A DNA stretch of 20,981 nt from NCBI GenBank assembly GCA_038046345.1, contig JBBSWJ010000019.1:51183-72163 (forward strand), in the 5' to 3' direction. A program made the position numbers and the translations under genes. This document shows, one piece after another, positions 1 to 11,921 of this stretch. Numbering within the stretch: the first letter of the stretch is position 1; each line of letters begins with the position of its first letter. A model generated the notes under the pieces. That model saw only the letters and a list, made by a program, of their open reading frames with translations. It did no database searches and was not told the origin of the DNA. The DNA comes from Nanobdellota archaeon. Its GTDB lineage: Archaea; Nanobdellota; Nanobdellia; SCGC-AAA011-G17; JACPNG01.

Positions 1-684
1 GGTATCTGATGGATCATAGCGTGGATCTAGTTTGCTAAGCATAGCTCTAGCTTCGTGGTCATTTGGTTTAATTAGTCTAGCATCAGCATACGATAAGTAA
101 GCAGCAGTTCGTGGATCAACAATTAATGGTATACCCAAATTTTTAATAGCAAAAACTACCCCTTTTTTAGCTATTCCTTTAGAATAGTCAGATAGTAAGA
201 CCACGTCATAATAATTTTTATTGGCTATAATTGTGTTTACAATTTTGTTTTTATCATCTACATGAAGCCCCGGCGTTTCTTTATCATGTCTTAATCCTGT
301 TGGCATGTTATTCCTGTTAGTGGCAAAAAAACGGATTTTAGTAGTTGTTTGAGCATTATCTGAAAGTTCTAAACCTGATGTATCAATGCCACCCGGTAGT
401 TTACCTACTAGCGAGGTTATACTTTCCATAAAATTTTCAGCGTGTTCATCATTTCCCAGAGTACCTACAGTTAGTACATGCGCTCCTAAGGCCGCAATGT
501 TAACTGTGCTGTTTCCGGCCCCACCGGGCGTGAATGTTTTGTACTGCTCTAAAAAGACAGGTACTGTAGATTCTGGTGATACTCTTGTGACTTCACCAAA
601 AAAAGATTTATCGAGCATAAAATCACCAACAACCATTACTCTTACTTTAGCAAAACTTTTCGTTGTTAAAACTATATTGTCCAT
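1..684 (-). CDS. rfaE: D-glycero-D-manno-heptose-7-phosphate kinase (HldE/RfaE domain I, PfkB family); partial, runs off the left window edge
   Basis: Hand translation from ATG 684 (in-frame TGA just upstream at 691-693) is open to position 1: MDNIVLTTKSFAKVRVMVVGDFMLDKSFFGEVTRVSPESTVPV...PGGAGNSTVNIAALG...VVLLSDYSKG...IVDP...IKPNDHEA. These match RfaE motifs VGDxMLD, RxSPExxVPV, GGAxN, SDYxKG, VDP, PNxxE. Confidence 0.9.
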   Translation of the reverse strand, partial: MDNIVLTTKSFAKVRVMVVGDFMLDKSFFGEVTRVSPESTVPVFLEQYKTFTPGGAGNSTVNIAALGAHVLTVGTLGNDEHAENFMESITSLVGKLPGGIDTSGLELSDNAQTTTKIRFFATNRNNMPTGLRHDKETPGLHVDDKNKIVNTIIANKNYYDVVLLSDYSKGIAKKGVVFAIKNLGIPLIVDPRTAAYLSYADARLIKPNDHEARAMLSKLDPRYDPSDT

Positions 685-1629: not shown

Positions 1630-2346
1630 TTATTTATTATAAATACTTGGATCTTTAACATTAGCCCAATAAAAAGCAGCTTGTCTTTGACGGCAATTAG
1701 AACAATAACCACAATGAGCTGGTAAATTATTTTTAAAATCGCTACCAGTATAACAACTGTAAGTAAATTCTAAAGGAACTTTTAGTTTTTGAGCTAAACT
1801 AACAATTTCATCTTTATCAAAATCAATTAATGGAGCAATTACTTTATAACCACCATGATGAGTGCACTCTTCTGCAAGATTATTAATGGCGTTAACAAAA
1901 CTTGGAGTAGAATCCTTAAAAGTTATCTGGCCCTCCTTTTTTATGCCGATTATTATGTCGTATCGCTCTTTAGTTTTAATAAATAAAGATTCAGCATGAG
2001 CCAGGGCAGAAATTAAAAATAAAGCATTTCTGCAAGGAACATACCAATTCAGCACATCTTTTTTTTCACGCTTAATATCTTCAAGATCTTTCATGGTAGT
2101 TTCTTGAACTGTTTTATTAGAATTGATCATTGAAGTGCTAATATCATTAAGCCATCTGATATCAATAACTTTAAAAGAAACGTTAAGTTTTTTAGCAATG
2201 GCTTTCATACAAAAAAGCTCTTCACCTAAACATCGTTGTCCATAATCAAAGAATAATAAACTAATTTTTTCATAATTTCTCTTAACATAATAAGCAGCAG
2301 TAACGCTGTCCAATCCGCCGGAAGTTACCACAATTGCATTACTCAT
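1630..2346 (-). CDS. queC: 7-cyano-7-deazaguanine synthase (QueC family)
   Basis: SGGLDS PP-loop, FDYGQR, YVPCRN, and C-terminal Zn motif SCY...CGYCSNC. ATG 2346 (MSNAIVV) preferred over the TTG at 2355. Confidence 0.92.
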   Translation of the reverse strand: MSNAIVVTSGGLDSVTAAYYVKRNYEKISLLFFDYGQRCLGEELFCMKAIAKKLNVSFKVIDIRWLNDISTSMINSNKTVQETTMKDLEDIKREKKDVLNWYVPCRNALFLISALAHAESLFIKTKERYDIIIGIKKEGQITFKDSTPSFVNAINNLAEECTHHGGYKVIAPLIDFDKDEIVSLAQKLKVPLEFTYSCYTGSDFKNNLPAHCGYCSNCRQRQAAFYWANVKDPSIYNK

Positions 2347-2368
2347 TTTATTCAATGATACAAAAATC

Positions 2369-2376
2369 TTATAAAT
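2369..2376. promoter_or_regulatory. Centrally placed TATA element serving divergent queC and aIF5A-like genes
   Basis: TTATAAAT (+) / ATTTATAA (-); 21-28 nt from ATG 2397 (+) and 23-30 nt from ATG 2346 (-). Confidence 0.55.
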
Positions 2377-2396
2377 ATTATCCTGTCCATGATGGC

Positions 2397-2594
2397 ATGG
2401 TTATAGCAAAAGATCTGAAAGAAGGGGATAAAATCACCTATGAAGGAGCTGTATTTGAAATAAAAAAAATACAAATTTCTAAAATAGGGAAGCATGGGAG
2501 ATCTAAATGCAGATTAGAAGTTGTTAACAAAGAAACAAAAGAAGAACTAATATTGATTAAACCATCAGAACAAGAATTTGAAACTGTATCATAA
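2397..2594 (+). CDS. aIF5A/eIF5A-like protein, N-terminal hypusine-loop domain only (65 aa)
   Basis: MVIAKDLKEGDKITYEGAVFEIKKIQISKIGKHGRSKCRLEVV matches the IF5A N-domain with GKHG. Start 2397 chosen from TATA spacing. Stop overlaps the next ATG (TAATG). Confidence 0.8.
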   Translation: MVIAKDLKEGDKITYEGAVFEIKKIQISKIGKHGRSKCRLEVVNKETKEELILIKPSEQEFETVS

Positions 2595-3499
2595 TGATAT
2601 ACATAGTAATTACTAGCTACAATGAACCGCTTGCTACAATAAAAGCAATAGAGTCAGTACTAAAGCAAGAATTTTCTAAAGAGTTTAAGCTAATAATCGC
2701 AGATCCCTTTGAAGACGTGTTATGGGATTTAGAAGAAAAATTTGGAAATAAAATTGAGTATTACCAGGATGAAGGGAAAGGTAAAAGTGTTACACTAAAT
2801 CAGATCATAAAACAGTATTACTCAAAAAATAAAGATGAAATATTTATATTTACAGACGGAGATGTTTATCTAACAGAAGGAAGCATACAGAAAATAATTG
2901 ATGCTTTTGAAGATAAAACTATTGGAGTAGTATGCGGGCAGCCAATTTCTATGAATTCTAAAGATAATATGCTAGGGTATTGGTCTCACTTGTTATTATC
3001 TGAGATGAATAAAACAAGAAAAAAAGCTCATCAAAAGAAAGAATTCTTTGAAGTAAGCGGGTACTTGTTTGCAATGAGAAATGGGGTAATAAATAGTTTT
3101 CCTGTAAATGCTTCTGAAGATAATGTGATACCAGCATTGTTTTGGAGTAAAGGGTATAAAATTGGTTATGCAGAAGAAGCAAAAGTGATGGTACTTAATC
3201 CGCAAAACTTTAAAGACTGGGTAATACAGAAAAAGAGAAATTTGAAAGGGCATATCTCATTAAAGTACGTGAATGCTAAAAACACACCAAGGAAAAATAC
3301 ATTCTTTGGAGAAGCAATTAGGGGTTTAAGATTTGTATTTATTTATCCTAGCAATGTTAAAGAATTCTTTTGGACTTTTGGAGTGTTATATGGAAGGTTA
3401 CACGTATGGGCATTAGCATATTATGAAAGTAAGTTTAAAGAGGATTATAAAGATGGCTGGAGGGAAGAGACTACAGATTCAACAAAACCTCTTGATTAA
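2594..3499 (+). CDS. Glycosyltransferase family 2
   Basis: IVITSYNE start, FTDGD DxD motif, SED...GY...A.V...P and QKKRN (QxxRW-like). Confidence 0.9.
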   Translation: MIYIVITSYNEPLATIKAIESVLKQEFSKEFKLIIADPFEDVLWDLEEKFGNKIEYYQDEGKGKSVTLNQIIKQYYSKNKDEIFIFTDGDVYLTEGSIQKIIDAFEDKTIGVVCGQPISMNSKDNMLGYWSHLLLSEMNKTRKKAHQKKEFFEVSGYLFAMRNGVINSFPVNASEDNVIPALFWSKGYKIGYAEEAKVMVLNPQNFKDWVIQKKRNLKGHISLKYVNAKNTPRKNTFFGEAIRGLRFVFIYPSNVKEFFWTFGVLYGRLHVWALAYYESKFKEDYKDGWREETTDSTKPLD

Positions 3500-4064
3500 T
3501 ATTTTTTAAAGTGTTATTATTGATTTGGATAATCTTAATCCTTTCAGGAAAAGCTTTAGCAATATCCTTAAAACCTTGGTCTAATTTTTTTAGGAAAAGT
3601 TTTTCTTCTGTTGAATATTTTTTTTGATTTCTTTCTTCAGCCCTTTTAATACAACTTTCAAAAGAATCTGTTAATAAAATTGTTTTATCCGGAACATTGC
3701 CTAAAAGTTTTCTTTTTTCCCAAAGTTTTTTAAAATTTGTAATTAAATCACCTTTAAGTTGAACTGCAGTGTATAAGCATGTAGTATCTGCGCCACGATC
3801 TTGCAAAACTATTTTGTTATTTTTTATGCTTGGAGCTACTTTCTCTTGGTGTATTATTGAATCTACTTTTGAAAACGCTTCAAATTCTATCATTGGTTTG
3901 TTGCTTCTAAAAAAAATATCGTTATTTTTTAATGAGTTAATAATTTTTAGTGCTTCACCATCGCATTCGTCATCGAGAATAACCTCAAACTTAGGATTAT
4001 TTTTTAGCTTTCTTAAGAAAAAACTTTTTCCTACGCCTTCAAGCCCTTCAAAGGTTATGTACAT
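3471..4064 (-). CDS. tmk: Thymidylate (dTMP) kinase family protein
   Basis: ITFEGLEGVGKS P-loop at the N-terminus, VLQDRG (DR motif), PDKTILL, lid region CIKRAEER. Confidence 0.8.
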   Translation of the reverse strand: MYITFEGLEGVGKSFFLRKLKNNPKFEVILDDECDGEALKIINSLKNNDIFFRSNKPMIEFEAFSKVDSIIHQEKVAPSIKNNKIVLQDRGADTTCLYTAVQLKGDLITNFKKLWEKRKLLGNVPDKTILLTDSFESCIKRAEERNQKKYSTEEKLFLKKLDQGFKDIAKAFPERIKIIQINNNTLKNINQEVLLNL

Positions 4065-4443
4065 TTTTTAAAACCATCCTTAATTCTTTTATGGAGTGTA
4101 CTAATTTAGCTGATTGGCTGATCATGGGGTTAAGAGTAGTTAATCTTGAATCTGTAACAAGCCCAATACATTTGATGTTTTTACTGAAAGCATAACCAAG
4201 CTCCCAAGCAGTGCCGGAGTCAATATCATTCCCGCTTAATATTGCGATTATCATTTGGCAGGTGTCAATGCCTGCTTTATCTTTTTTGAAAATAATCTTT
4301 TCATCTGTGCCTTTGCTTATTAAACCTGCATCTCTATGCGGGAGAAATGTGTCAAATCCAAGGTCTTTGCATACCCTATTAACCTCTTCTAACAGCGTTC
4401 TTTCAATCTCACTGAATAATGGTCCTGCAATATATACTATCAT
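4048..4443 (-). CDS. Nucleoside 2-deoxyribosyltransferase / N-glycosidase family protein
   Basis: VYIAGPLFS, FLPHRD, IFxxD, DSGTAWELGYA (catalytic Glu), NPMI. Confidence 0.88.
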   Translation of the reverse strand: MIVYIAGPLFSEIERTLLEEVNRVCKDLGFDTFLPHRDAGLISKGTDEKIIFKKDKAGIDTCQMIIAILSGNDIDSGTAWELGYAFSKNIKCIGLVTDSRLTTLNPMISQSAKLVHSIKELRMVLKNVHNL

Positions 4444-4496: not shown

Positions 4497-5606
4497 ATGG
4501 AAATAAAATGGAATAGAAACTGTAAAGAATATAATGGAGTATATGCGTGTGATATCCTAAAAAGTGAAGGATATAACAGCTGTAATGACTGCGATTTTTA
4601 TGAGCCAAGAGGCAAAAAAATATTTATAATAAAACTAGGCGCATCAGGCGATGTATTAAGAACAACACCAATCTTAAAGGCAATAAAAAAGAAATATGGA
4701 AGCGACTGTCATATCACATGGTTAACAAAAGATTTCAATAGAGAATTATTATACGAGAATGAACTAATTGATGAAGTGATAACATTAAGCGAAGATATAA
4801 TGAGATTAAAATATGAACAATTTGATGTTTTATTCAATTTTGAGATTGATACACCGGCTACACTTATAGCCAGAGAGATAAATGCTGTACAGAAATTTGG
4901 ATACTTTTTTGACAGTGACGGCCATCCATCAGCGTATAACCCTAAAGCAGAATTTTATCTAAACAGAGCATTATCAGACAAGATAAACAAAAGCAACACC
5001 AAGACATATCAAGAGATGATATTTGAAATAGCAGAATTAGATTACAACCAGGAAGATTATATCTTGAACTTAACTGACGATGAGAAAGAATTAAGCGTTA
5101 AACTAAGAGAGCCTTACAAAGGACTACCAATAATTGGAGTTGTAGTCGGAGCAGGATCAAGATGGCCATCTAAACAATGGGACAGAGATAATTTAATCGG
5201 TCTAATCAAAAAACTCCGCGGTGTAATATTATTATTATCCGGACCAAATGAACCTGAAGGGATACAGCAAGAAATAGTAAAGGAACTAAAAAATCATCAA
5301 TTTCCAATAATGATGAATAACCCGCATAATACCCTAAGAGAGTTTATCAGCGCAGTAAACGCATGTGACTTGTTTATTTGCGGAGACAGCTTAGCTTTAC
5401 ATATAGCATTAGCTTTACAAAAAAAAACAGTTGGGCTATTTTTTTGCACTCCAGACTGGGAGGTTGAAGGCTATGGCAGGTTAAAGAAATTAGTAAGCCC
5501 GTTGTTAATGAAGCATTTCTATACCGATGAGAAAGTAAAAGAACTAGGAACAAGTATTACAATAAAAGAAGTTATAGAAAAAGTTAAAGAATTTCAAACT
5601 AATTAG
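4497..5606 (+). CDS. Glycosyltransferase family 9 (heptosyltransferase-like) with N-terminal Cys4 extension
   Basis: IIKLGASGDVLRTTP, GAGSRWPSKQW, ICGDSLALHIALAL; N-terminal C-x8-C-x10-C-x2-C. Confidence 0.9.
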   Translation: MEIKWNRNCKEYNGVYACDILKSEGYNSCNDCDFYEPRGKKIFIIKLGASGDVLRTTPILKAIKKKYGSDCHITWLTKDFNRELLYENELIDEVITLSEDIMRLKYEQFDVLFNFEIDTPATLIAREINAVQKFGYFFDSDGHPSAYNPKAEFYLNRALSDKINKSNTKTYQEMIFEIAELDYNQEDYILNLTDDEKELSVKLREPYKGLPIIGVVVGAGSRWPSKQWDRDNLIGLIKKLRGVILLLSGPNEPEGIQQEIVKELKNHQFPIMMNNPHNTLREFISAVNACDLFICGDSLALHIALALQKKTVGLFFCTPDWEVEGYGRLKKLVSPLLMKHFYTDEKVKELGTSITIKEVIEKVKEFQTN

Positions 5607-7546: not shown

Positions 7547-7579
7547 AGAAAATCAAGCCTGATATCTAACCTTGTCATA
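7547..7579. repeat. 33-bp direct repeat, copy 2 (active 3' end of the radical SAM gene)
   Basis: agaaaatcaagcctgatatctaaccttgtcata; minus strand reads YDKVRYQA*. Confidence 0.92.
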
Positions 7580-9100
7580 CCAAGACCTAAATGATAAAGG
7601 CATTCTTCTGAAAATAGGTTTAGCTAAATTTTCCCTAAAAAAATCCATAGACTGAACAACAGTACCAGCAGCATAAGTTGGAGTTAAATGTTTTTCATTA
7701 AAGGTTACAGATGAATCTTTGATTAACCTATTAAGAACAGAAGCAGGGATTAAACCATAACGCATGTCTGTGCATGGCCCACGCATCAGATTAAGGACTA
7801 GGGATAAGTACATATTCTTTTTCTTAAGCTTAATATGCTTCCAACGATCCCAATAGTTCAAATCAGATGCAGTATCCTTACCATCTTTAATAAACCCATC
7901 TTGAATAGCTTTTCGATATAATGGAGTTCCTTCAAAGAATATCAAGTTATTTACAGACAGATAGAAGGGTTTAGGTAATTGTCTGATTAGATTAATAGTA
8001 GCAAGAACATCTTCACGAGTCTCATATGGATTACAGGCAATAATATCATACATGACAGTAAGCTTATCCTTAAATTTGTTAACCGCTATAGCAGACTTAA
8101 TAACCTGAGCAGCTGAAATGAATCTATTATATAATTTAAAGTTTAGCTGATCACTACCTGACTGAATCCCAACAATAATATCTGATAAACCAGCGTCAAC
8201 TAATAAGGAAAGTTTCTCAGAAGAAATAACCTCATTACTAATACTTGCCGGTTCTGTTAAGCACTTCATTCTTAGTCCTACTTTCTCTTTGTATTTCTCA
8301 GAAAACTCTCTTAACCACTCAATTGGTCTGATCAAAAAAGTTTCATCGCGTATGTCAATTACACTAATAGAAGGAAAACGATTCTTTAAATCAACAAATT
8401 CTTCAATAACGTAATCAACAGAATGAGTTCTTAATAAATCAGACTTACCTTTGTAAATTTCTCTAAGAATATTATTCGTACAATAACTGCAAGCCTGGGG
8501 GCAACCGCGCTCAGTTTGGAAAAAAAGCATACCACCAATATGGCGTTCTTCAAAATGGATTAGTTTACTATTTTCTAAAATTAATTGAGAATCAATATCA
8601 AAATCCTGATGTGGAAGCATATCTAGATCATGAATTGGTGGGCGAACATGGTTTTTAGTTTCAGTTTTGTTGGTTCTAACCCATAAGTTAGGAATCTTAG
8701 AAATATCTTGGTTTCTTTCCAATGAATTGGCCAAGTCAACAAAAGCATCTTCAGCTTCTCCCACCGCAATAATATCACAATATTTGAAACAATCTTCTGG
8801 AAAAAAAGTAGGGTGCGGACCGCCCCAAACAACCGGAATATTAAGTTTTTTTCCTAAACTAATTAATTGTTTTGCGCGGTCGTTGGTAGAAGCATAAGCA
8901 TTAATGCCAATAAGTTTACAGTCTGATATTTTAGATTCAACTTGATTTAAAACATCTACAGGATATTTAATGGAGTAGTCTTCCGGTAAAGGAAGGAAAA
9001 TTAATTGGACTTGATGTTCTTTAGACTTAAGGTAAGAAGAAATTGTTCTCAGCCCTTGGTCTGCAGGGAAAGTGCTTGTTGAAAGAAGTGCAATCTTCAT
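7553..9100 (-). CDS. Cobalamin-binding radical SAM protein (class B methyltransferase-like)
   Basis: N-terminal B12-binding Rossmann domain (GINA, VVWGGPHPT, VGEAE), TERGCPQACSYC (CxxxCxxC), DETF, GIQSGS. Confidence 0.92.
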   Translation of the reverse strand: MKIALLSTSTFPADQGLRTISSYLKSKEHQVQLIFLPLPEDYSIKYPVDVLNQVESKISDCKLIGINAYASTNDRAKQLISLGKKLNIPVVWGGPHPTFFPEDCFKYCDIIAVGEAEDAFVDLANSLERNQDISKIPNLWVRTNKTETKNHVRPPIHDLDMLPHQDFDIDSQLILENSKLIHFEERHIGGMLFFQTERGCPQACSYCTNNILREIYKGKSDLLRTHSVDYVIEEFVDLKNRFPSISVIDIRDETFLIRPIEWLREFSEKYKEKVGLRMKCLTEPASISNEVISSEKLSLLVDAGLSDIIVGIQSGSDQLNFKLYNRFISAAQVIKSAIAVNKFKDKLTVMYDIIACNPYETREDVLATINLIRQLPKPFYLSVNNLIFFEGTPLYRKAIQDGFIKDGKDTASDLNYWDRWKHIKLKKKNMYLSLVLNLMRGPCTDMRYGLIPASVLNRLIKDSSVTFNEKHLTPTYAAGTVVQSMDFFRENLAKPIFRRMPLSFRSWYDKVRYQA

Positions 9101-9152
9101 TTTGTTGTTAAAAGAGATTGGTTTAAAATTGTTTCGTACCGATTAACAGCCG

Positions 9153-9737
9153 TTATATTTTAACAGGCTCATCCTGAACATATTTTAATCCTTTTTTTAA
9201 AGCAATTTCTGCATTATGGAGCTCCTTACCAAGATAAGCAGCATGTTGCAAAGAACCAACAAGTTTTTCGCGAATAATAGTATTAAAAATCTCTGTAGAG
9301 CTCTTACCTGTAATGATTGTATCCACAATATTTCTTTCAATACAGTGCCCAGCTTCTATAATCTTATTTTTAGAGTCAATACGAATTAAGAAATAACCTA
9401 ATGGATCCATACGCCATTCTTTTAAATCGTTGTAATGAGCAGTAATTTGTTTTAGTTTATTAGACGAAGATAAGTTCATAGAAACAATTTCTTTATTAGT
9501 GGTAAGATTAATTATCCCGATAGCGTTTACTGGGCAAGATTTAGCAGCAATAATCATTTTTTCTTTTTCAGCTTCATTTGGAATAATATCTAAATGAGAG
9601 ATATCATTATGAGTTTCAGAATTAATCAATTCAGCTTTATTTTCAATTATTTTAAAATTATCCGGGCTCTCAGTGACGCACATGCCAGCACCAATACATT
9701 TACCACGATCAAGTTTGATACGCCATTGTTCACTCAT
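9153..9737 (-). CDS. Ferredoxin (3Fe-4S-type) fused to a DUF4346-like domain
   Basis: N-terminal KCIGAGMC...SCPVNAI; C-terminal DPLGYFLIRID...HAAYLGKEL..AE.AL..G..YVQD. Confidence 0.8.
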   Translation of the reverse strand: MSEQWRIKLDRGKCIGAGMCVTESPDNFKIIENKAELINSETHNDISHLDIIPNEAEKEKMIIAAKSCPVNAIGIINLTTNKEIVSMNLSSSNKLKQITAHYNDLKEWRMDPLGYFLIRIDSKNKIIEAGHCIERNIVDTIITGKSSTEIFNTIIREKLVGSLQHAAYLGKELHNAEIALKKGLKYVQDEPVKI

Positions 9738-10869
9738 TATAAGCTTCCTCCATATAACGTTGAGATATTAAATCCCAATCAAAAGACTTTGCCTTTAGCT
9801 CATTATTACCAGCAAATTTGTCGGCAAGCTCTTTGTTATCAAGAACTTCTAAGATCTTTTGTTTTAAAGTTTTTCTATCGCCATAATCTACGAGAAAACC
9901 GTTTACTCCATCTTTTACTTCATAAGGTACTCCATTGCAAGGTGAGGCAATTATTGGTAATTTAGAAGCCATCGCCTCAAAAATAGTTAATGGGAGACCC
10001 TCCCTGTAGCTTGGCAGGACATAAACATCAGCAGCTTGATACATCTCCTGCCTTTCAGAATAACCGGTTATAGCACCAAGTAAAAACATTCTTGGCTGAT
10101 CTTTAATAATGTTTTTTACATCTTGTTCTTTGCCTTCATCAGGACCAACAAAAACAAAAGAAATATCTTTACGTACATTAACAATTTCAGTACCTACTTC
10201 TGCAAGGACATCAGGGCCTTTAGTTGGATTTAAACGCCCAAAAAATAAAACCATCTTCCCGTTTGGAATGTTATATTTTTTTTTGAAATTGTTATTTTTA
10301 ATCCGTGAAAAAAAAGATTTGTCCATACCGTTAGGGATATTAACTACCTCAGATATTGGCACCCATTTTTTTAATATGGAATATTCCCATGGGGTAATAG
10401 CTACAACTTTGTCAATGAGTCTAAAAGATATGTGGTTGAATATTTTTTCATTTAGAAAGACCAGAATTCTTAATATTTTTCTTCTGTACTTATCTGTCCA
10501 TGGACAATGAGTCGTATGAACATGTCTAGCCCCAGAAATTTTAGCAATAATACCAGCAAATAGAACATATGCATGGCCTGACACATGAGAATGGATTATG
10601 TCAAACTTTTTTTGTTTAATGAATTTTAAGAATATTCCCGGCCAAATAAATGTGCTTAGTGATAAACGGAACCAGTATCTTGATCGATGAACATGGATGT
10701 TATTAATTATTTCTTCTTTTTTTTTAATTCTTTTGTATTTGTCAGAGTCACAACAAAATACATGAACTTCGTGTCCTTGAGCAGCTTGACGTTCTGCAAG
10801 CTCTTGCATAACCATTTCTACACCCCCAAAAGTGGGGGCATAAAACATGTTAACATGTGCGATTCTCAT
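9730..10869 (-). CDS. Glycosyltransferase family 4
   Basis: GGVE, FFGRLNPTKG, YVLPSYREGLPLTIFEAMAS (EX7E). Confidence 0.95.
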   Translation of the reverse strand: MRIAHVNMFYAPTFGGVEMVMQELAERQAAQGHEVHVFCCDSDKYKRIKKKEEIINNIHVHRSRYWFRLSLSTFIWPGIFLKFIKQKKFDIIHSHVSGHAYVLFAGIIAKISGARHVHTTHCPWTDKYRRKILRILVFLNEKIFNHISFRLIDKVVAITPWEYSILKKWVPISEVVNIPNGMDKSFFSRIKNNNFKKKYNIPNGKMVLFFGRLNPTKGPDVLAEVGTEIVNVRKDISFVFVGPDEGKEQDVKNIIKDQPRMFLLGAITGYSERQEMYQAADVYVLPSYREGLPLTIFEAMASKLPIIASPCNGVPYEVKDGVNGFLVDYGDRKTLKQKILEVLDNKELADKFAGNNELKAKSFDWDLISQRYMEEAYNE

Positions 10870-11921
10870 ATTTTACTTAAAACCTCGTCTACAGTGATGG
10901 ATTTCATGCATTCCATGAACCTTTTTCCCTTGAGAGAACAAGTATACTGATGGCAAGTAGTGCATACTTCATTATGAAATATAACGGTGGACTCCTTTGT
11001 TAACGGTTTCCAAACATTTGGCTCGCCTGCACCAAATAAGCTAATTACCTTTTTATTAAACGCAGCAGCAACATGCATAGCGCTAGTATCAACGCTGATT
11101 ACATACGCTGCGTTTTTAATTATAGCAAAAAACTCCTTAAGGCTTGAGCCCGCGAAGTTTTTAGATTGCTTCTTCGTTGTTAGAGCTATGATCTCCTGAT
11201 TATAATTGTGCTGTTCTTTAGACCCAGTGAAGATGACCGGTAAATCTAATTTGTCTGCTAGATCTGCCCAGTTGCGTATTGACCAGTTATGGGATGGATA
11301 GTTAGCAGCTGCGTGAAATACTACATATCTTTTTGGTAAATCGTTTAAAATTGTTTTTTCTACTTTTGGATCTGTATATATTTTTGGAAAAATATCTTTG
11401 GTGGTTATACCTATAGTTTTTATCACATCAAGATTATCTAAAATCTTAAGCTTCCATTTTTTAGTAGGCTTTGTTTTTCTATGCAAGAAAAAACCTTTAC
11501 CTTCCAGTATCCCAGCACGACAAGAGCCAATACGAAATGGAATGTGTTTTGTTAATGTTGAGATTTTAAATGAACCTGGATGGAGTATAATTGCAAGGTC
11601 ATAATTAGGGATTGAGTTTGGTAAATTCTTTGGATTCCATTCAATAATTTTGTTTAAATGAGGGTTATTGTATAAGACATCTTTCATACCAACAGGGACA
11701 GCTATGTCAATTTTTGCTTTAGGGAAATGTTCCTTTAAAGCGCTTATTGTAGGCGTTGAAACAATTAAATCTCCAATATACTTTAGCTCGATTATTAAGA
11801 TACTTTTTGGTTTTAGTTGTGGTTTGAATTTTCTAAAACTAAAGATTTTCCATATGATGTAGTCTAAATACCAGAACACAGTGCGTAGTTTTCTGAGTAG
11901 TTTGAAACGTAATCTTTCCAT
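10866..11921 (-). CDS. Glycosyltransferase family 9 (heptosyltransferase-like)
   Basis: LKYIGDLIVSTP, VFHAAA...NW, SVDTSAMHVAAA, SLFGA; C-terminal C-x2-C-x4-C-x9-C. Confidence 0.93.
   Translation of the reverse strand: MERLRFKLLRKLRTVFWYLDYIIWKIFSFRKFKPQLKPKSILIIELKYIGDLIVSTPTISALKEHFPKAKIDIAVPVGMKDVLYNNPHLNKIIEWNPKNLPNSIPNYDLAIILHPGSFKISTLTKHIPFRIGSCRAGILEGKGFFLHRKTKPTKKWKLKILDNLDVIKTIGITTKDIFPKIYTDPKVEKTILNDLPKRYVVFHAAANYPSHNWSIRNWADLADKLDLPVIFTGSKEQHNYNQEIIALTTKKQSKNFAGSSLKEFFAIIKNAAYVISVDTSAMHVAAAFNKKVISLFGAGEPNVWKPLTKESTVIFHNEVCTTCHQYTCSLKGKRFMECMKSITVDEVLSKI

What the first reader, a model, noticed from the sequence alone, without database searches (positions are those of the whole stretch)
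2397..2594. Half-length aIF5A: stand-alone hypusine-loop domain coupled to a glycosyltransferase
Seen: a 65-aa ORF with SKIGKHGRSKCR (Lys codon 2490-2492) that ends where the IF5A N-domain ends. Its TAA overlaps the GT2 ATG, so no C-terminal half is hidden in another frame. Established: aIF5A is about 130 aa with an N-terminal SH3-like domain and a C-terminal OB-fold, and the GKHG Lys is (deoxy)hypusinated. Inference: either a minimal aIF5A of a reduced archaeon, or a paralog acting as decoy or substrate for deoxyhypusine synthase or as a ribosome E-site binder.
Basis: partly seen in the sequence, partly recalled or inferred. Interest (0 to 1): 0.7.

Follow-up and report, generated by a model that had tools for sequence, protein, structure and literature searches.

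The report
Stand-alone IF5A lysine-loop domain in QueC module
This 65-residue gene is a real, conserved extra copy of only the lysine-loop half of translation factor aIF5A. In small DPANN archaea it always travels with a QueC-type ligase, a nucleoside-transferase-like enzyme and two glycosyltransferases, which points to an undescribed protein-modification or glycoconjugate system, not a minimal translation factor.

Summary
In detail: window 2397-2594(+) encodes a 65-aa protein ("S") with the SKIGKHGRSKCR loop (Lys32 codon at 2490-2492). It ends where IF5A domain I ends, and its TAA overlaps the GT2 ATG.

It is not the cell's aIF5A. The same 821-kb, 97%-complete Woesearchaeota-type genome has a full-length 132-aa aIF5A and a deoxyhypusine synthase elsewhere.

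S is a separate paralog family of 62-67 aa:
- It forms one clade apart from full-length N-domains and is under purifying selection (dN/dS 0.04-0.15).
- The AlphaFold model has pLDDT 92 and the eIF5A/EF-P domain-I fold.
- It was found in 18 of 61 related genomes and in a second order.

In all 25 loci examined S lies in one cassette: QueC-like< S> GT2> (dTMP-kinase-like<) NDT-like< GT9>. QueC-like and S share a ~50-nt divergent promoter with one central TATA box. QueC-like and NDT-like occur only where S occurs. They do not track tRNA-guanine transglycosylase, and QueD was found in 0 of 61 genomes.

Best reading (about 0.4): S is the protein acceptor or partner of the cassette's enzymes. Its loop lysine would be acylated by the QueC-like ligase, as Cap9 and QatC do to their target proteins. 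A QueC-like+S complex prediction gave only weak support.

Earlier follow-ups of this scan reported the same module on other genomes. I found no paper describing it.

The parts
2397..2594 (+). S: 65-aa stand-alone IF5A domain-I paralog (stop included)
   Evidence: Translation. IF-5A family matches over the N-domain only. AF2 pLDDT 91.9, with best folds eIF5A/EF-P domain I. Family of 62-67-aa proteins. dN/dS 0.04-0.15.
2490..2492 (+). Codon of Lys32, the counterpart of the hypusinated lysine
   Evidence: Lys is invariant in the 23 module-linked sequences (A4) and at least 90% conserved in 38 family members (A1).
2347..2396 (.). 50-nt divergent intergenic region with one central TATA box (CTTATAAAT, 2368-2376), about 25 nt from each ATG. 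Both mRNAs are probably leaderless.
   Evidence: Sequence. The same 49-54-nt spacing with a central TTTATAAA-like box occurs in 17 of 19 loci compared.
1630..2346 (-). QueC-like PP-loop ATPase (238 aa from the ATG at 2346)
   Evidence: PF06508 166 bits. TIGR00364 146.5 bits against a cut-off of 150.3. Best PDB matches are Cap9 9nto, then QueC 2pg3 and 3bl5. Motif analysis. Found only in S-bearing genomes.
2594..3499 (+). GT2-family (GT-A) glycosyltransferase, start overlapping the stop of S
   Evidence: PF00535 and PF13641. No hydrophobic segment of transmembrane strength. Directly downstream of S in 25 of 25 loci.
3471..4064 (-). dTMP-kinase-like protein (accessory; present in 4 of the 25 loci)
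   Evidence: PF02223 62 bits; TIGR00041 52.9 bits, below its cut-off. Cluster c9.
4048..4443 (-). Nucleoside 2-deoxyribosyltransferase-like (NDT-like) protein with a conserved GTAWE.GYA motif (catalytic-Glu context)
   Evidence: PF05014 80 bits. Alignment. Found only in the same 18 genomes as S.
4497..5606 (+). GT9-family (heptosyltransferase-like) glycosyltransferase with an N-terminal four-Cys extension
   Evidence: PF01075. N-terminal Cys motif conserved in the Woesearchaeales copies. In S-less relatives the homolog sits directly upstream of GT2 or is fused to it.

Best explanation
S is a dedicated paralog of aIF5A reduced to domain I, the SH3/KOW-like barrel that presents the modifiable lysine on a loop. 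It works as a component of a five-gene cassette, not as the cell's translation factor.

Most likely mechanism (inferred, not shown):
1. S is the protein acceptor of the cassette's enzymes.
2. The QueC-like PP-loop ATPase adenylates a carboxylate. This could be 7-carboxy-7-deazaguanine taken from the host or environment, or another carboxylated base or sugar.
3. The epsilon-amine of Lys32 of S, free or already deoxyhypusinated by the cell's DHS, attacks in place of ammonia and forms an amide. This is what the QueC-family enzymes Cap9 and QatC do to the N-terminal amine of their neighbouring target proteins.
4. The NDT-like transglycosylase and the GT2 and GT9 transferases would then extend or process the adduct.

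Shown:
- S is a real, selected, separate family.
- Its fold and its loop lysine are kept.
- It is inherited with QueC-like and NDT-like as one unit.
- QueC-like and S share a promoter.
- The QueC-like gene is uncoupled from the tRNA archaeosine pathway.

Inferred: the direct S to QueC-like enzyme-substrate relation, the site (Lys32) and the chemistry.
For: 1. S is not the sole aIF5A. A full-length aIF5A and a DHS lie elsewhere in the genome.
2. S is a separate family. About 28 clusters of 61-67-aa proteins came up in an exhaustive search. S splits from full-length N-domains with SH-like support 0.925. dN/dS is 0.04-0.15.
3. The fold is eIF5A/EF-P domain I (TMq 0.8-0.92). Matches include EF-P domain I alone bound to its modifying enzyme EarP (5wxk) and aIF5A bound to DHS (8put).
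4. S28, K32, G34, K37 and R39 are invariant in module-linked copies.
5. The cassette QueC-like< S> GT2> NDT-like< GT9> is present in 25 of 25 loci, including a second order, one member of which is labelled Pacearchaeota.
6. Among 61 related genomes, S, QueC-like and NDT-like occur in the same 18. The only exception is one weak partial QueC hit.
7. Three within-genus contrasts (G016 vs G012/G014, G055 vs G030, G059 vs G038) lose or gain all three genes together. At the locus compared between G016 and G012/G014, the S-less form is a GT9-GT2 fusion.
8. The QueC-like and S start codons are 49-54 nt apart around a single TATA box in 17 of 19 loci.
9. The QueC-like gene is not there for tRNA. TGT, QueD, FolE, YhhQ and a QueE above cut-off were not found in this genome. 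TGT is present in 5 of 18 S-bearing and 9 of 43 S-less genomes. QueD was found in 0 of 61.
10. There is a precedent. QueC-family Cap9 conjugates CDG to the amine of its neighbouring target protein by the QueC mechanism (10.1101/2025.04.06.647259), and QatC acts on QatB (PMC13279940, PMC13329287). Cap9 is the best PDB sequence match of the QueC-like protein.
11. The substrate-pocket motifs of canonical QueC are altered. The His of YxQxHxxE is lost. YPDC becomes [FLM]KD[TS] or YPD[TA]. SGGxDS, VPxRN and the Zn site are kept.
12. The complex prediction of QueC-like (A3) with S (A4) gave weak support: score 0.51, best of 3 controls 0.00. The mark was reached by 58 of 80 solved complexes and 2 of 110 mismatched pairs. 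At 0.60 or under it was reached by only 7 of those 80, and by both mismatches that passed. The runs agree in at least 92% of contacts and the partner's pLDDT is at least 88.
Against: - No direct evidence of any modification. No contacts were returned by the complex prediction, so it is unknown whether Lys32 faces the active site.
- Known QueC-type conjugations target a flexible Gly-rich N-terminus, not a lysine side chain. The N-termini of S are variable and not Gly-rich.
- The QueC-like protein is nearly canonical (146.5 bits against a cut-off of 150.3). It could simply make preQ0 for a small-molecule route with the NDT-like enzyme.
- No endogenous source of CDG was found.
- GT2 and GT9 homologs work without S in about two thirds of related genomes, so S is not their general acceptor.
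- A few family members have loop insertions or replace His33 or Gly31.
- The exact retention of the aIF5A loop could equally reflect DHS or ribosome recognition.
Confidence: 0.4

Rival explanations
1. S is a non-substrate subunit, a scaffold, activator or specificity adaptor of GT2 and/or the QueC-like enzyme. The cassette would then make a small molecule or a surface glycoconjugate variant, for example a 7-deazapurine or other nucleoside-derived decoration of the heptose-type glycan encoded around it. The KOW barrel serves as a binding module and the lysine is not covalently modified.
For: - The S stop overlaps the GT2 start or lies within 35 nt of it in 23 of 25 loci. This is typical of stoichiometric partners.
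- The cassette replaces a plain GT9-GT2 pair or fusion at the locus compared between G016 and G012/G014, inside a glycan island with GT4, a second GT9, a B12-radical SAM enzyme and PfkB kinases. This resembles surface-glycan allelic variation.
- PF06508-superfamily enzymes include sugar amidotransferases such as WbpG, and a QueC-like cluster is linked to PfkB-PF05014 proteins (PMC13329287).
Against: - No known glycan or nucleoside pathway uses an IF5A/EF-P domain.
- This reading does not explain why the loop S..GK.G..K.R is the most conserved part of S.
- The QueC-like protein belongs with canonical QueC, not with the WbpG-type cluster.
Confidence: 0.25
2. One reading: S still acts in the translation world. 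It would be a second DHS substrate or competitor, or a mini-factor that puts the lysine loop into the ribosomal E site or peptidyl-transferase centre. Its link to the cassette would be only regulatory.
For: - The loop residues that aIF5A uses are kept.
- A DHS is present in the genome.
- Solved DHS-IF5A complexes exist (8put, 8a0e), and the model of S superposes on their IF5A chains.
- From my own knowledge, not tested here: the N-domain of eIF5A suffices as a DHS substrate.
Against: - This reading gives no reason for the all-or-none co-inheritance with QueC-like and NDT-like, or for the shared promoter.
- The loop of S is relaxed compared with full-length copies. His33 can be L, M, F or Q, Gly31 can be A, and some members have insertions. 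All 26 full-length copies keep GKHG.
- Domain II is missing.
- Only about 30% of the order carries S.
Confidence: 0.15
3. S is the organism's only, minimal aIF5A, or it is a truncated pseudogene or an assembly artefact.
For: Its length is half that of aIF5A. One S-bearing genome (G032, 89% complete) showed no full-length copy.
Against: - A full-length aIF5A is present in this genome and in 17 of 18 S-bearing genomes.
- The length of 62-67 aa is conserved across two orders.
- dN/dS is far below 1.
- Independent contigs agree.
Confidence: 0.01

Closest known systems
Archaeal/eukaryotic translation factor a/eIF5A, domain I with the hypusine loop (TIGR00037, PF21485; structures 1bkb, 1iz6, 8put)
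   Same: Same fold (TMq about 0.8). Same loop S-K-x-G-K-H-G-x-x-K-x-R with the lysine at the tip. 35% identity to the genome's own aIF5A N-domain. S ends exactly at the domain I/II linker.
   Different: No OB-fold domain II. Scores far below the family cut-offs. A separate clade that coexists with the true aIF5A. The loop is less constrained. It is fixed in a QueC-like/GT2/NDT-like/GT9 cassette, not in a translation context.
QueC-family protein-nucleobase conjugation (deazaguanylation): Cap9 acting on the CD-NTase in type IV CBASS, and QatC acting on QatB
   Same: A QueC-family PP-loop/Zn enzyme is encoded next to a small or partner protein and is not connected to tRNA modification. A base-exchange-type enzyme accompanies it (TGT-like Cap10 there, NDT-like here). 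Cap9 is the best PDB sequence hit of the QueC-like protein.
   Different: Archaeal, and set in a glycan island, not a defence island. There is no CD-NTase, Cap10/TGT or QatA/B/D. The candidate acceptor site is a loop lysine, not a Gly-rich N-terminus. The enzyme is near-canonical QueC, not Cap9- or QatC-like in length. No adduct has been shown.
EF-P with its adjacent modification enzymes (EarP arginine rhamnosylation; EpmA/EpmB beta-lysylation)
   Same: The tip of the same KOW loop is the acceptor. The enzymes are encoded beside the factor. Domain I alone is sufficient for enzyme recognition (5wxk). EpmA-type chemistry is also transfer of an adenylated carboxylate to a lysine amine (the EpmA chemistry is from my own knowledge).
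   Different: The neighbouring transferase is a GT2 (GT-A fold), not EarP (GT-B fold). The ligase is a PP-loop QueC, not a LysRS paralog. The acceptor here is a stand-alone domain that coexists with the full factor.
Canonical QueC in preQ0/archaeosine biosynthesis
   Same: SGGxDS, VPxRN and the C...CxxCxxC Zn motif are kept. TIGR00364 scores 146.5 bits.
   Different: The score is just under the curated cut-off. The His of YxQxHxxE and the Cys of YPDC are lost. No QueD, QueE, FolE, TGT or YhhQ was found in the genome. There is no association with TGT across relatives.

Membership tests
a/eIF5A translation factor (TIGR00037 / NF003076) | Domain I: SH3/KOW-like beta-barrel | tested here: met
   AF2 pLDDT 91.9. 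Foldseek top hits are eIF5A/aIF5A/EF-P domain I, TMq 0.8-0.92.
a/eIF5A translation factor (TIGR00037 / NF003076) | Hypusine-loop motif with the Lys in G-K-H-G | tested here: met
   S28-K-I-G-K32-H-G-R-S-K-C-R39. K32 is invariant in 23 module-linked copies.
a/eIF5A translation factor (TIGR00037 / NF003076) | C-terminal OB-fold domain II, full length about 130 aa | tested here: not met
   65 aa. The match covers model positions 9-68 of 130 only, and the GT2 gene starts at the stop codon.
a/eIF5A translation factor (TIGR00037 / NF003076) | Score above the curated family cut-off; orthologous single copy | tested here: not met
   29-33 bits against cut-offs of 75 and 138. The genome's true aIF5A scores 121 bits on contig C31. 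S is a separate clade.
a/eIF5A translation factor (TIGR00037 / NF003076) | Lys (deoxy)hypusinated by DHS; binds the ribosomal E site | not testable with these tools
   A DHS is present in the genome. Modification and binding need experiments.
Pfam IF5A-like_N (PF21485) / EFP_N (PF08207) domain | Match above the gathering score | tested here: inconclusive
   EFP_N scores 23.2 against 23.0, a bare pass. IF5A-like_N scores 21.2 against 27.1, below. The family profile matches aIF5A structures at E 5e-12. Atlas clusters of 64-65-aa relatives carry these Pfam families in 29-53% of members.
QueC-family protein deazaguanylation systems (Cap9/CD-NTase, QatC/QatB) | QueC-family PP-loop ATPase with a Zn site encoded beside its protein partner | tested here: met
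   PF06508 166 bits. SGGxDS and C..CxxCxxC are conserved. Divergent neighbour of S in 25 of 25 loci.
QueC-family protein deazaguanylation systems (Cap9/CD-NTase, QatC/QatB) | Target protein with a flexible Gly-rich N-terminal tail (M(G/S)G(G/S)GG) as acceptor | tested here: not met
   The N-termini of S are short, variable and not Gly-rich. The motif is as described in 10.1101/2025.04.06.647259.
QueC-family protein deazaguanylation systems (Cap9/CD-NTase, QatC/QatB) | Companion Cap10 (TGT-like) with a CD-NTase, or QatA/B/D | tested here: not met
   No TGT in the genome. PADLOC gives only the generic QueC model (110 bits); QatC scores 19.5 bits; nothing for the other genes.
QueC-family protein deazaguanylation systems (Cap9/CD-NTase, QatC/QatB) | Covalent 7-amido-7-deazaguanine adduct on the partner protein | not testable with these tools
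   Needs mass spectrometry. The complex prediction gave only weak support (0.51 against a best control of 0.00).
EF-P / EarP-type glycosylation of the KOW loop | EarP-family (GT-B fold) rhamnosyltransferase and an Arg at the loop tip | tested here: not met
   The neighbouring transferase is a GT2 (PF00535, GT-A type) and the tip residue is Lys.
Canonical QueC (TIGR00364 equivalog) | Score above the cut-off and the full catalytic signature (YxQxHxxE, VPxRN, YPDC, Zn motif) | tested here: not met
   146.5 bits against 150.3. The His and the YPDC Cys are lost in all 25 orthologs. VPxRN and the Zn motif are kept.

The most novel reading that the evidence does not exclude
The cassette is a lysine-directed nucleobase-protein conjugation system, the first archaeal and the first non-defence case. 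A near-canonical QueC would attach a scavenged 7-carboxy-7-deazaguanine-type base to the hypusine-loop lysine (or to deoxyhypusine) of a dedicated mini-IF5A. The NDT-like transglycosylase and the GT2 and GT9 transferases would then build a (deoxy)ribosyl or glycan extension on it. This would be a new member of the series of exotic modifications carried by the IF5A/EF-P loop.
Probability: 0.2. Interest if true: 0.9.

Novelty: new variant of a known kind. Interest (0 to 1): 0.72.

Why it matters
The IF5A/EF-P loop is known only as the modified tip of a two- or three-domain translation factor. Here that domain alone has been duplicated, kept under selection across two DPANN orders, and tied to a QueC-type ligase that has no tRNA pathway to serve.

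If S is the ligase's acceptor, QueC-type protein conjugation would extend from bacterial anti-phage systems to archaea and to lysine side chains. It would also add a new chemistry to the hypusine loop. If S is instead a scaffold, it reveals an unknown glycoconjugate or nucleoside pathway that varies between close relatives of host-dependent archaea.

Either way the hypothesis can be tested directly with four small soluble proteins.

Tried and rejected
- Word-index homolog search with S found only one near-identical protein. The exhaustive search was needed.
- PF01287 (the eIF-5a OB domain) found nothing in the genome, although a full-length aIF5A exists, so that blank is uninformative.
- The IQ-TREE run timed out, so FastTree was used.
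- Sequencing runs: no RNA holder is listed, so nothing can be said on expression.
- PADLOC gave no defence-system assignment beyond a generic QueC model, a weak QatC tail match and weak kinase hits.
- Genes inserted between S and GT2 in L081 and L086 have no Pfam match.
- A GT2 profile against the PDB gave only generic GT-A N-terminal matches (chondroitin and heparosan synthases, SpsA), which say nothing about the acceptor.
- Literature searches for IF5A with QueC, and for aIF5A with DPANN, returned nothing relevant.
- Only one complex job was available, so S+GT2 and S+DHS were not tested.
- Rejected readings: sole minimal aIF5A, pseudogene, assembly error, and QueC serving archaeosine synthesis.

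Full report
**Observation.** The ORF at 2397-2594(+) gives 65 residues with the loop S-K-I-G-K-H-G-R-S-K-C-R. Lys32 is codon 2490-2492, and the TAA shares a base with the ATG of the next gene, a GT2-family glycosyltransferase. NCBIfam IF-5A models match it at E 2.6e-8 and 7e-7, but only over model positions 9-67 of about 130 and far below their cut-offs. A profile of the family aligns end to end with residues 9-70 and 6-68 of the archaeal IF5A structures 1bkb and 1iz6 at E 5e-12, so the protein is exactly domain I. Contigs from four further public runs of two studies cover the ORF and its stop without indels.

**It is a paralog, not a minimal aIF5A.** The window's genome has 821 kb in 35 contigs and is 97% complete. 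It holds a full-length aIF5A of 132 aa on another contig (121 bits, cut-off 75) and a deoxyhypusine synthase (334 bits). The short protein, called S here, is 35% identical to the N-domain of that aIF5A.

**S is a conserved family of its own.**
- An exhaustive HMMER search returned 35 hits at E below 1e-3. About 28 of them are 61-67 aa long.
- Among 61 genomes of the same order, 18 carry a short copy at 40-57% identity. Seventeen of these also carry a full-length aIF5A. In the eighteenth, G032 (89% complete), none was found.
- A sample of 301 genomes of the class found S in 12, including four from a family of another order.
- Record titles name the organisms as Candidatus Woesearchaeota or Nanoarchaeia MAGs, plus one Pacearchaeota.
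- In a tree of 38 S sequences and 26 full-length N-domains, S separates as one clade with SH-like support 0.925.
- Four close pairs give dN/dS of 0.04-0.15.
- AlphaFold2 on the family alignment gives a five-stranded barrel with mean pLDDT 91.9.
- The best structural matches are eIF5A, aIF5A and EF-P domain I (TMq 0.8-0.92). They include EF-P domain I alone bound to EarP (5wxk) and aIF5A bound to DHS (8put).
- S28, G34, K37 and R39 are invariant in 38 members, and K32 is at least 90% conserved. K32 is invariant in the 23 module-linked copies.
- The loop is looser than in full-length copies. His33 can be L, M, F or Q, Gly31 can be A, and three members have insertions. All 26 full-length sequences keep GKHG.

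**The context is the main result.** I compared 12-kb neighbourhoods of the 18 loci, then of four loci from the other order and three more from named MAGs. All show the same cassette: QueC-like (divergent), S, GT2, NDT-like (PF05014, opposite strand), GT9.
- GT2 follows S on the same strand in 25 of 25 loci. In 23 it overlaps or lies within 35 nt. In two, an unannotatable gene is inserted.
- The QueC-like gene is the divergent upstream neighbour in 25 of 25 loci.
- The NDT-like gene is in 23 of 25 flanks and in all 18 genomes.
- A dTMP-kinase-like gene, as in this window, is an occasional insert.
- The start codons of QueC-like and S are 49-54 nt apart, with a single central TTTATAAA-type box, in 17 of 19 loci. 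In the window this is CTTATAAAT at 2368-2376, about 25 nt from each ATG. That fits two leaderless transcripts from one shared TATA box.

**Co-inheritance.**
- Across the 61 genomes, QueC-like occurs in the same 18 that have S, plus one weak partial hit. NDT-like occurs in exactly those 18.
- GT2 homologs are more widespread (49 of 61). The 18 S-linked ones are the 18 best hits. Copies from other families rank above S-less copies from the window's own family.
- In S-less genomes GT2 sits directly after a GT9 or GT4 gene, or is fused to GT9 in proteins of about 632 aa.
- Three genus-level contrasts (G016 vs G012/G014, G055 vs G030, G059 vs G038; all at least 90% complete) lack S, QueC-like and NDT-like together. 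At the locus compared between G016 and G012/G014, downstream of the radical-SAM and GT4 genes, the S-less form is the plain GT9-GT2 fusion.
- The cassette therefore behaves as one exchangeable unit inside a glycan island.

**The QueC-like gene is not there for archaeosine.**
- The genome shows no TGT, QueD/PTPS, FolE or YhhQ, and no QueE above cut-off.
- QueD was found in 0 of 61 relatives.
- TGT is present in 5 of 18 S-bearing and 9 of 43 S-less genomes, so there is no association.
- The protein is close to canonical QueC (TIGR00364 146.5 bits against a cut-off of 150.3). It keeps SGGxDS, VPxRN and the Zn cysteines.
- All 25 orthologs lack the His of YxQxHxxE and the Cys of YPDC. These two motifs were mapped to the mouth of the substrate pocket by Libby et al. 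2026.
- Its best PDB sequence match is Cap9.

**Mechanism.** QueC-family enzymes have recently been shown to use the QueC adenylation chemistry to attach 7-carboxy-7-deazaguanine to the amine of a neighbouring protein. Cap9 does this to the CD-NTase in type IV CBASS, accompanied by the base-exchange-type enzyme Cap10, and QatC does it to QatB (PMC13329287).

The cassette has the same three roles: a ligase, a base-exchange-type enzyme (NDT-like, with GTAWE.GYA conserved) and a small partner protein. That partner's most conserved feature is the lysine which, across the whole IF5A/EF-P superfamily, is the site of side-chain extension by enzymes encoded nearby. I therefore favour S as the acceptor, with Lys32 (possibly after deoxyhypusination) acylated by the QueC-like enzyme and the adduct further processed. 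My confidence is about 0.4.

A prediction of the QueC-like+S complex gave weak support only. The score was 0.51 and the best of 3 controls was 0.00. The mark was reached by 58 of 80 solved complexes and 2 of 110 mismatches. At 0.60 or under it was reached by only 7 of those 80, and by both passing mismatches. The runs agree in at least 92% of contacts and the partner's pLDDT is at least 88. No contacts were reported.

Points against this reading:
- There is no precedent for a lysine acceptor.
- No CDG source was found.
- The enzyme is nearly canonical.
- GT2 and GT9 function without S in other genomes.

**Rivals.**
- S as a non-covalent subunit of a glycoconjugate or nucleoside pathway (0.25).
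- S as a DHS substrate or decoy, or a ribosome binder (0.15).
- Sole aIF5A, pseudogene or artefact (0.01; refuted for this genome).

**Novelty.** I found no paper that links IF5A with QueC or describes a stand-alone archaeal domain I. The 2026 survey of the QueC family does not mention glycosyltransferase, IF5A or DPANN contexts. Earlier follow-ups of this scan reported the same module on other genomes. I reached it independently before reading them, and I tested one of their leads, the single-TATA geometry. My TGT and QueD surveys argue against one earlier reading, that the module is a scavenging route for the tRNA base.

Noticed in passing
P0023 (90 aa): A predicted protein joins the first ~50 residues of a QueC-like protein (SGGLDS) to the C-terminal half of an S-family protein. 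The two genes are divergent neighbours, so this is probably an assembly or gene-call chimera across the shared promoter, not a true fusion.
   Followed up: no
L043, L046, L049 (G021, G042, G016): In S-less relatives the GT9 and GT2 homologs are fused into one protein of about 632 aa. This indicates that the two transferases act together.
   Followed up: partly
G032 (L037/L076): This is the one S-bearing genome (89% complete, 70 contigs) in which no full-length aIF5A was found, either with S or with TIGR00037. The gene probably lies in the unassembled part, but it is worth checking.
   Followed up: partly
The protein-atlas search, rank 3: A cluster of 69-aa IF5A-like_N proteins has half of its taxon-labelled members from Uroviricota. 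There are also bacterial clusters of about 71-aa stand-alone EF-P KOW domains. Stand-alone domain-I proteins may therefore be more widespread. The scores are below 0.9, so these are leads only.
   Followed up: no
window 4497-4620 (N-terminus of the GT9 gene): A four-Cys extension of about 40 aa (C-x8-C-x10-C-x2-C in the window's copy; the first spacing varies by a few residues between copies) is conserved in the S-linked GT9 of Woesearchaeales and in two of the seven S-less copies compared. It is absent from the other five S-less copies and from the copies of the other order (f44/Pacearchaeota-type), several of which are longer overall.
   Followed up: partly
window 1-684(-), 7553-11921(-): The surrounding island encodes a PfkB (RfaE-like) kinase, a B12-binding radical SAM enzyme, a ferredoxin-DUF4346 fusion, a GT4 and a second GT9. 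This core glycan cluster is shared with S-less relatives.
   Followed up: partly
window 2415 and 2439: One independent run carries C>G and T>A here. Both changes are non-synonymous (L7V and Y15N) and give the 97%-identical strain variant P0002.
   Followed up: yes
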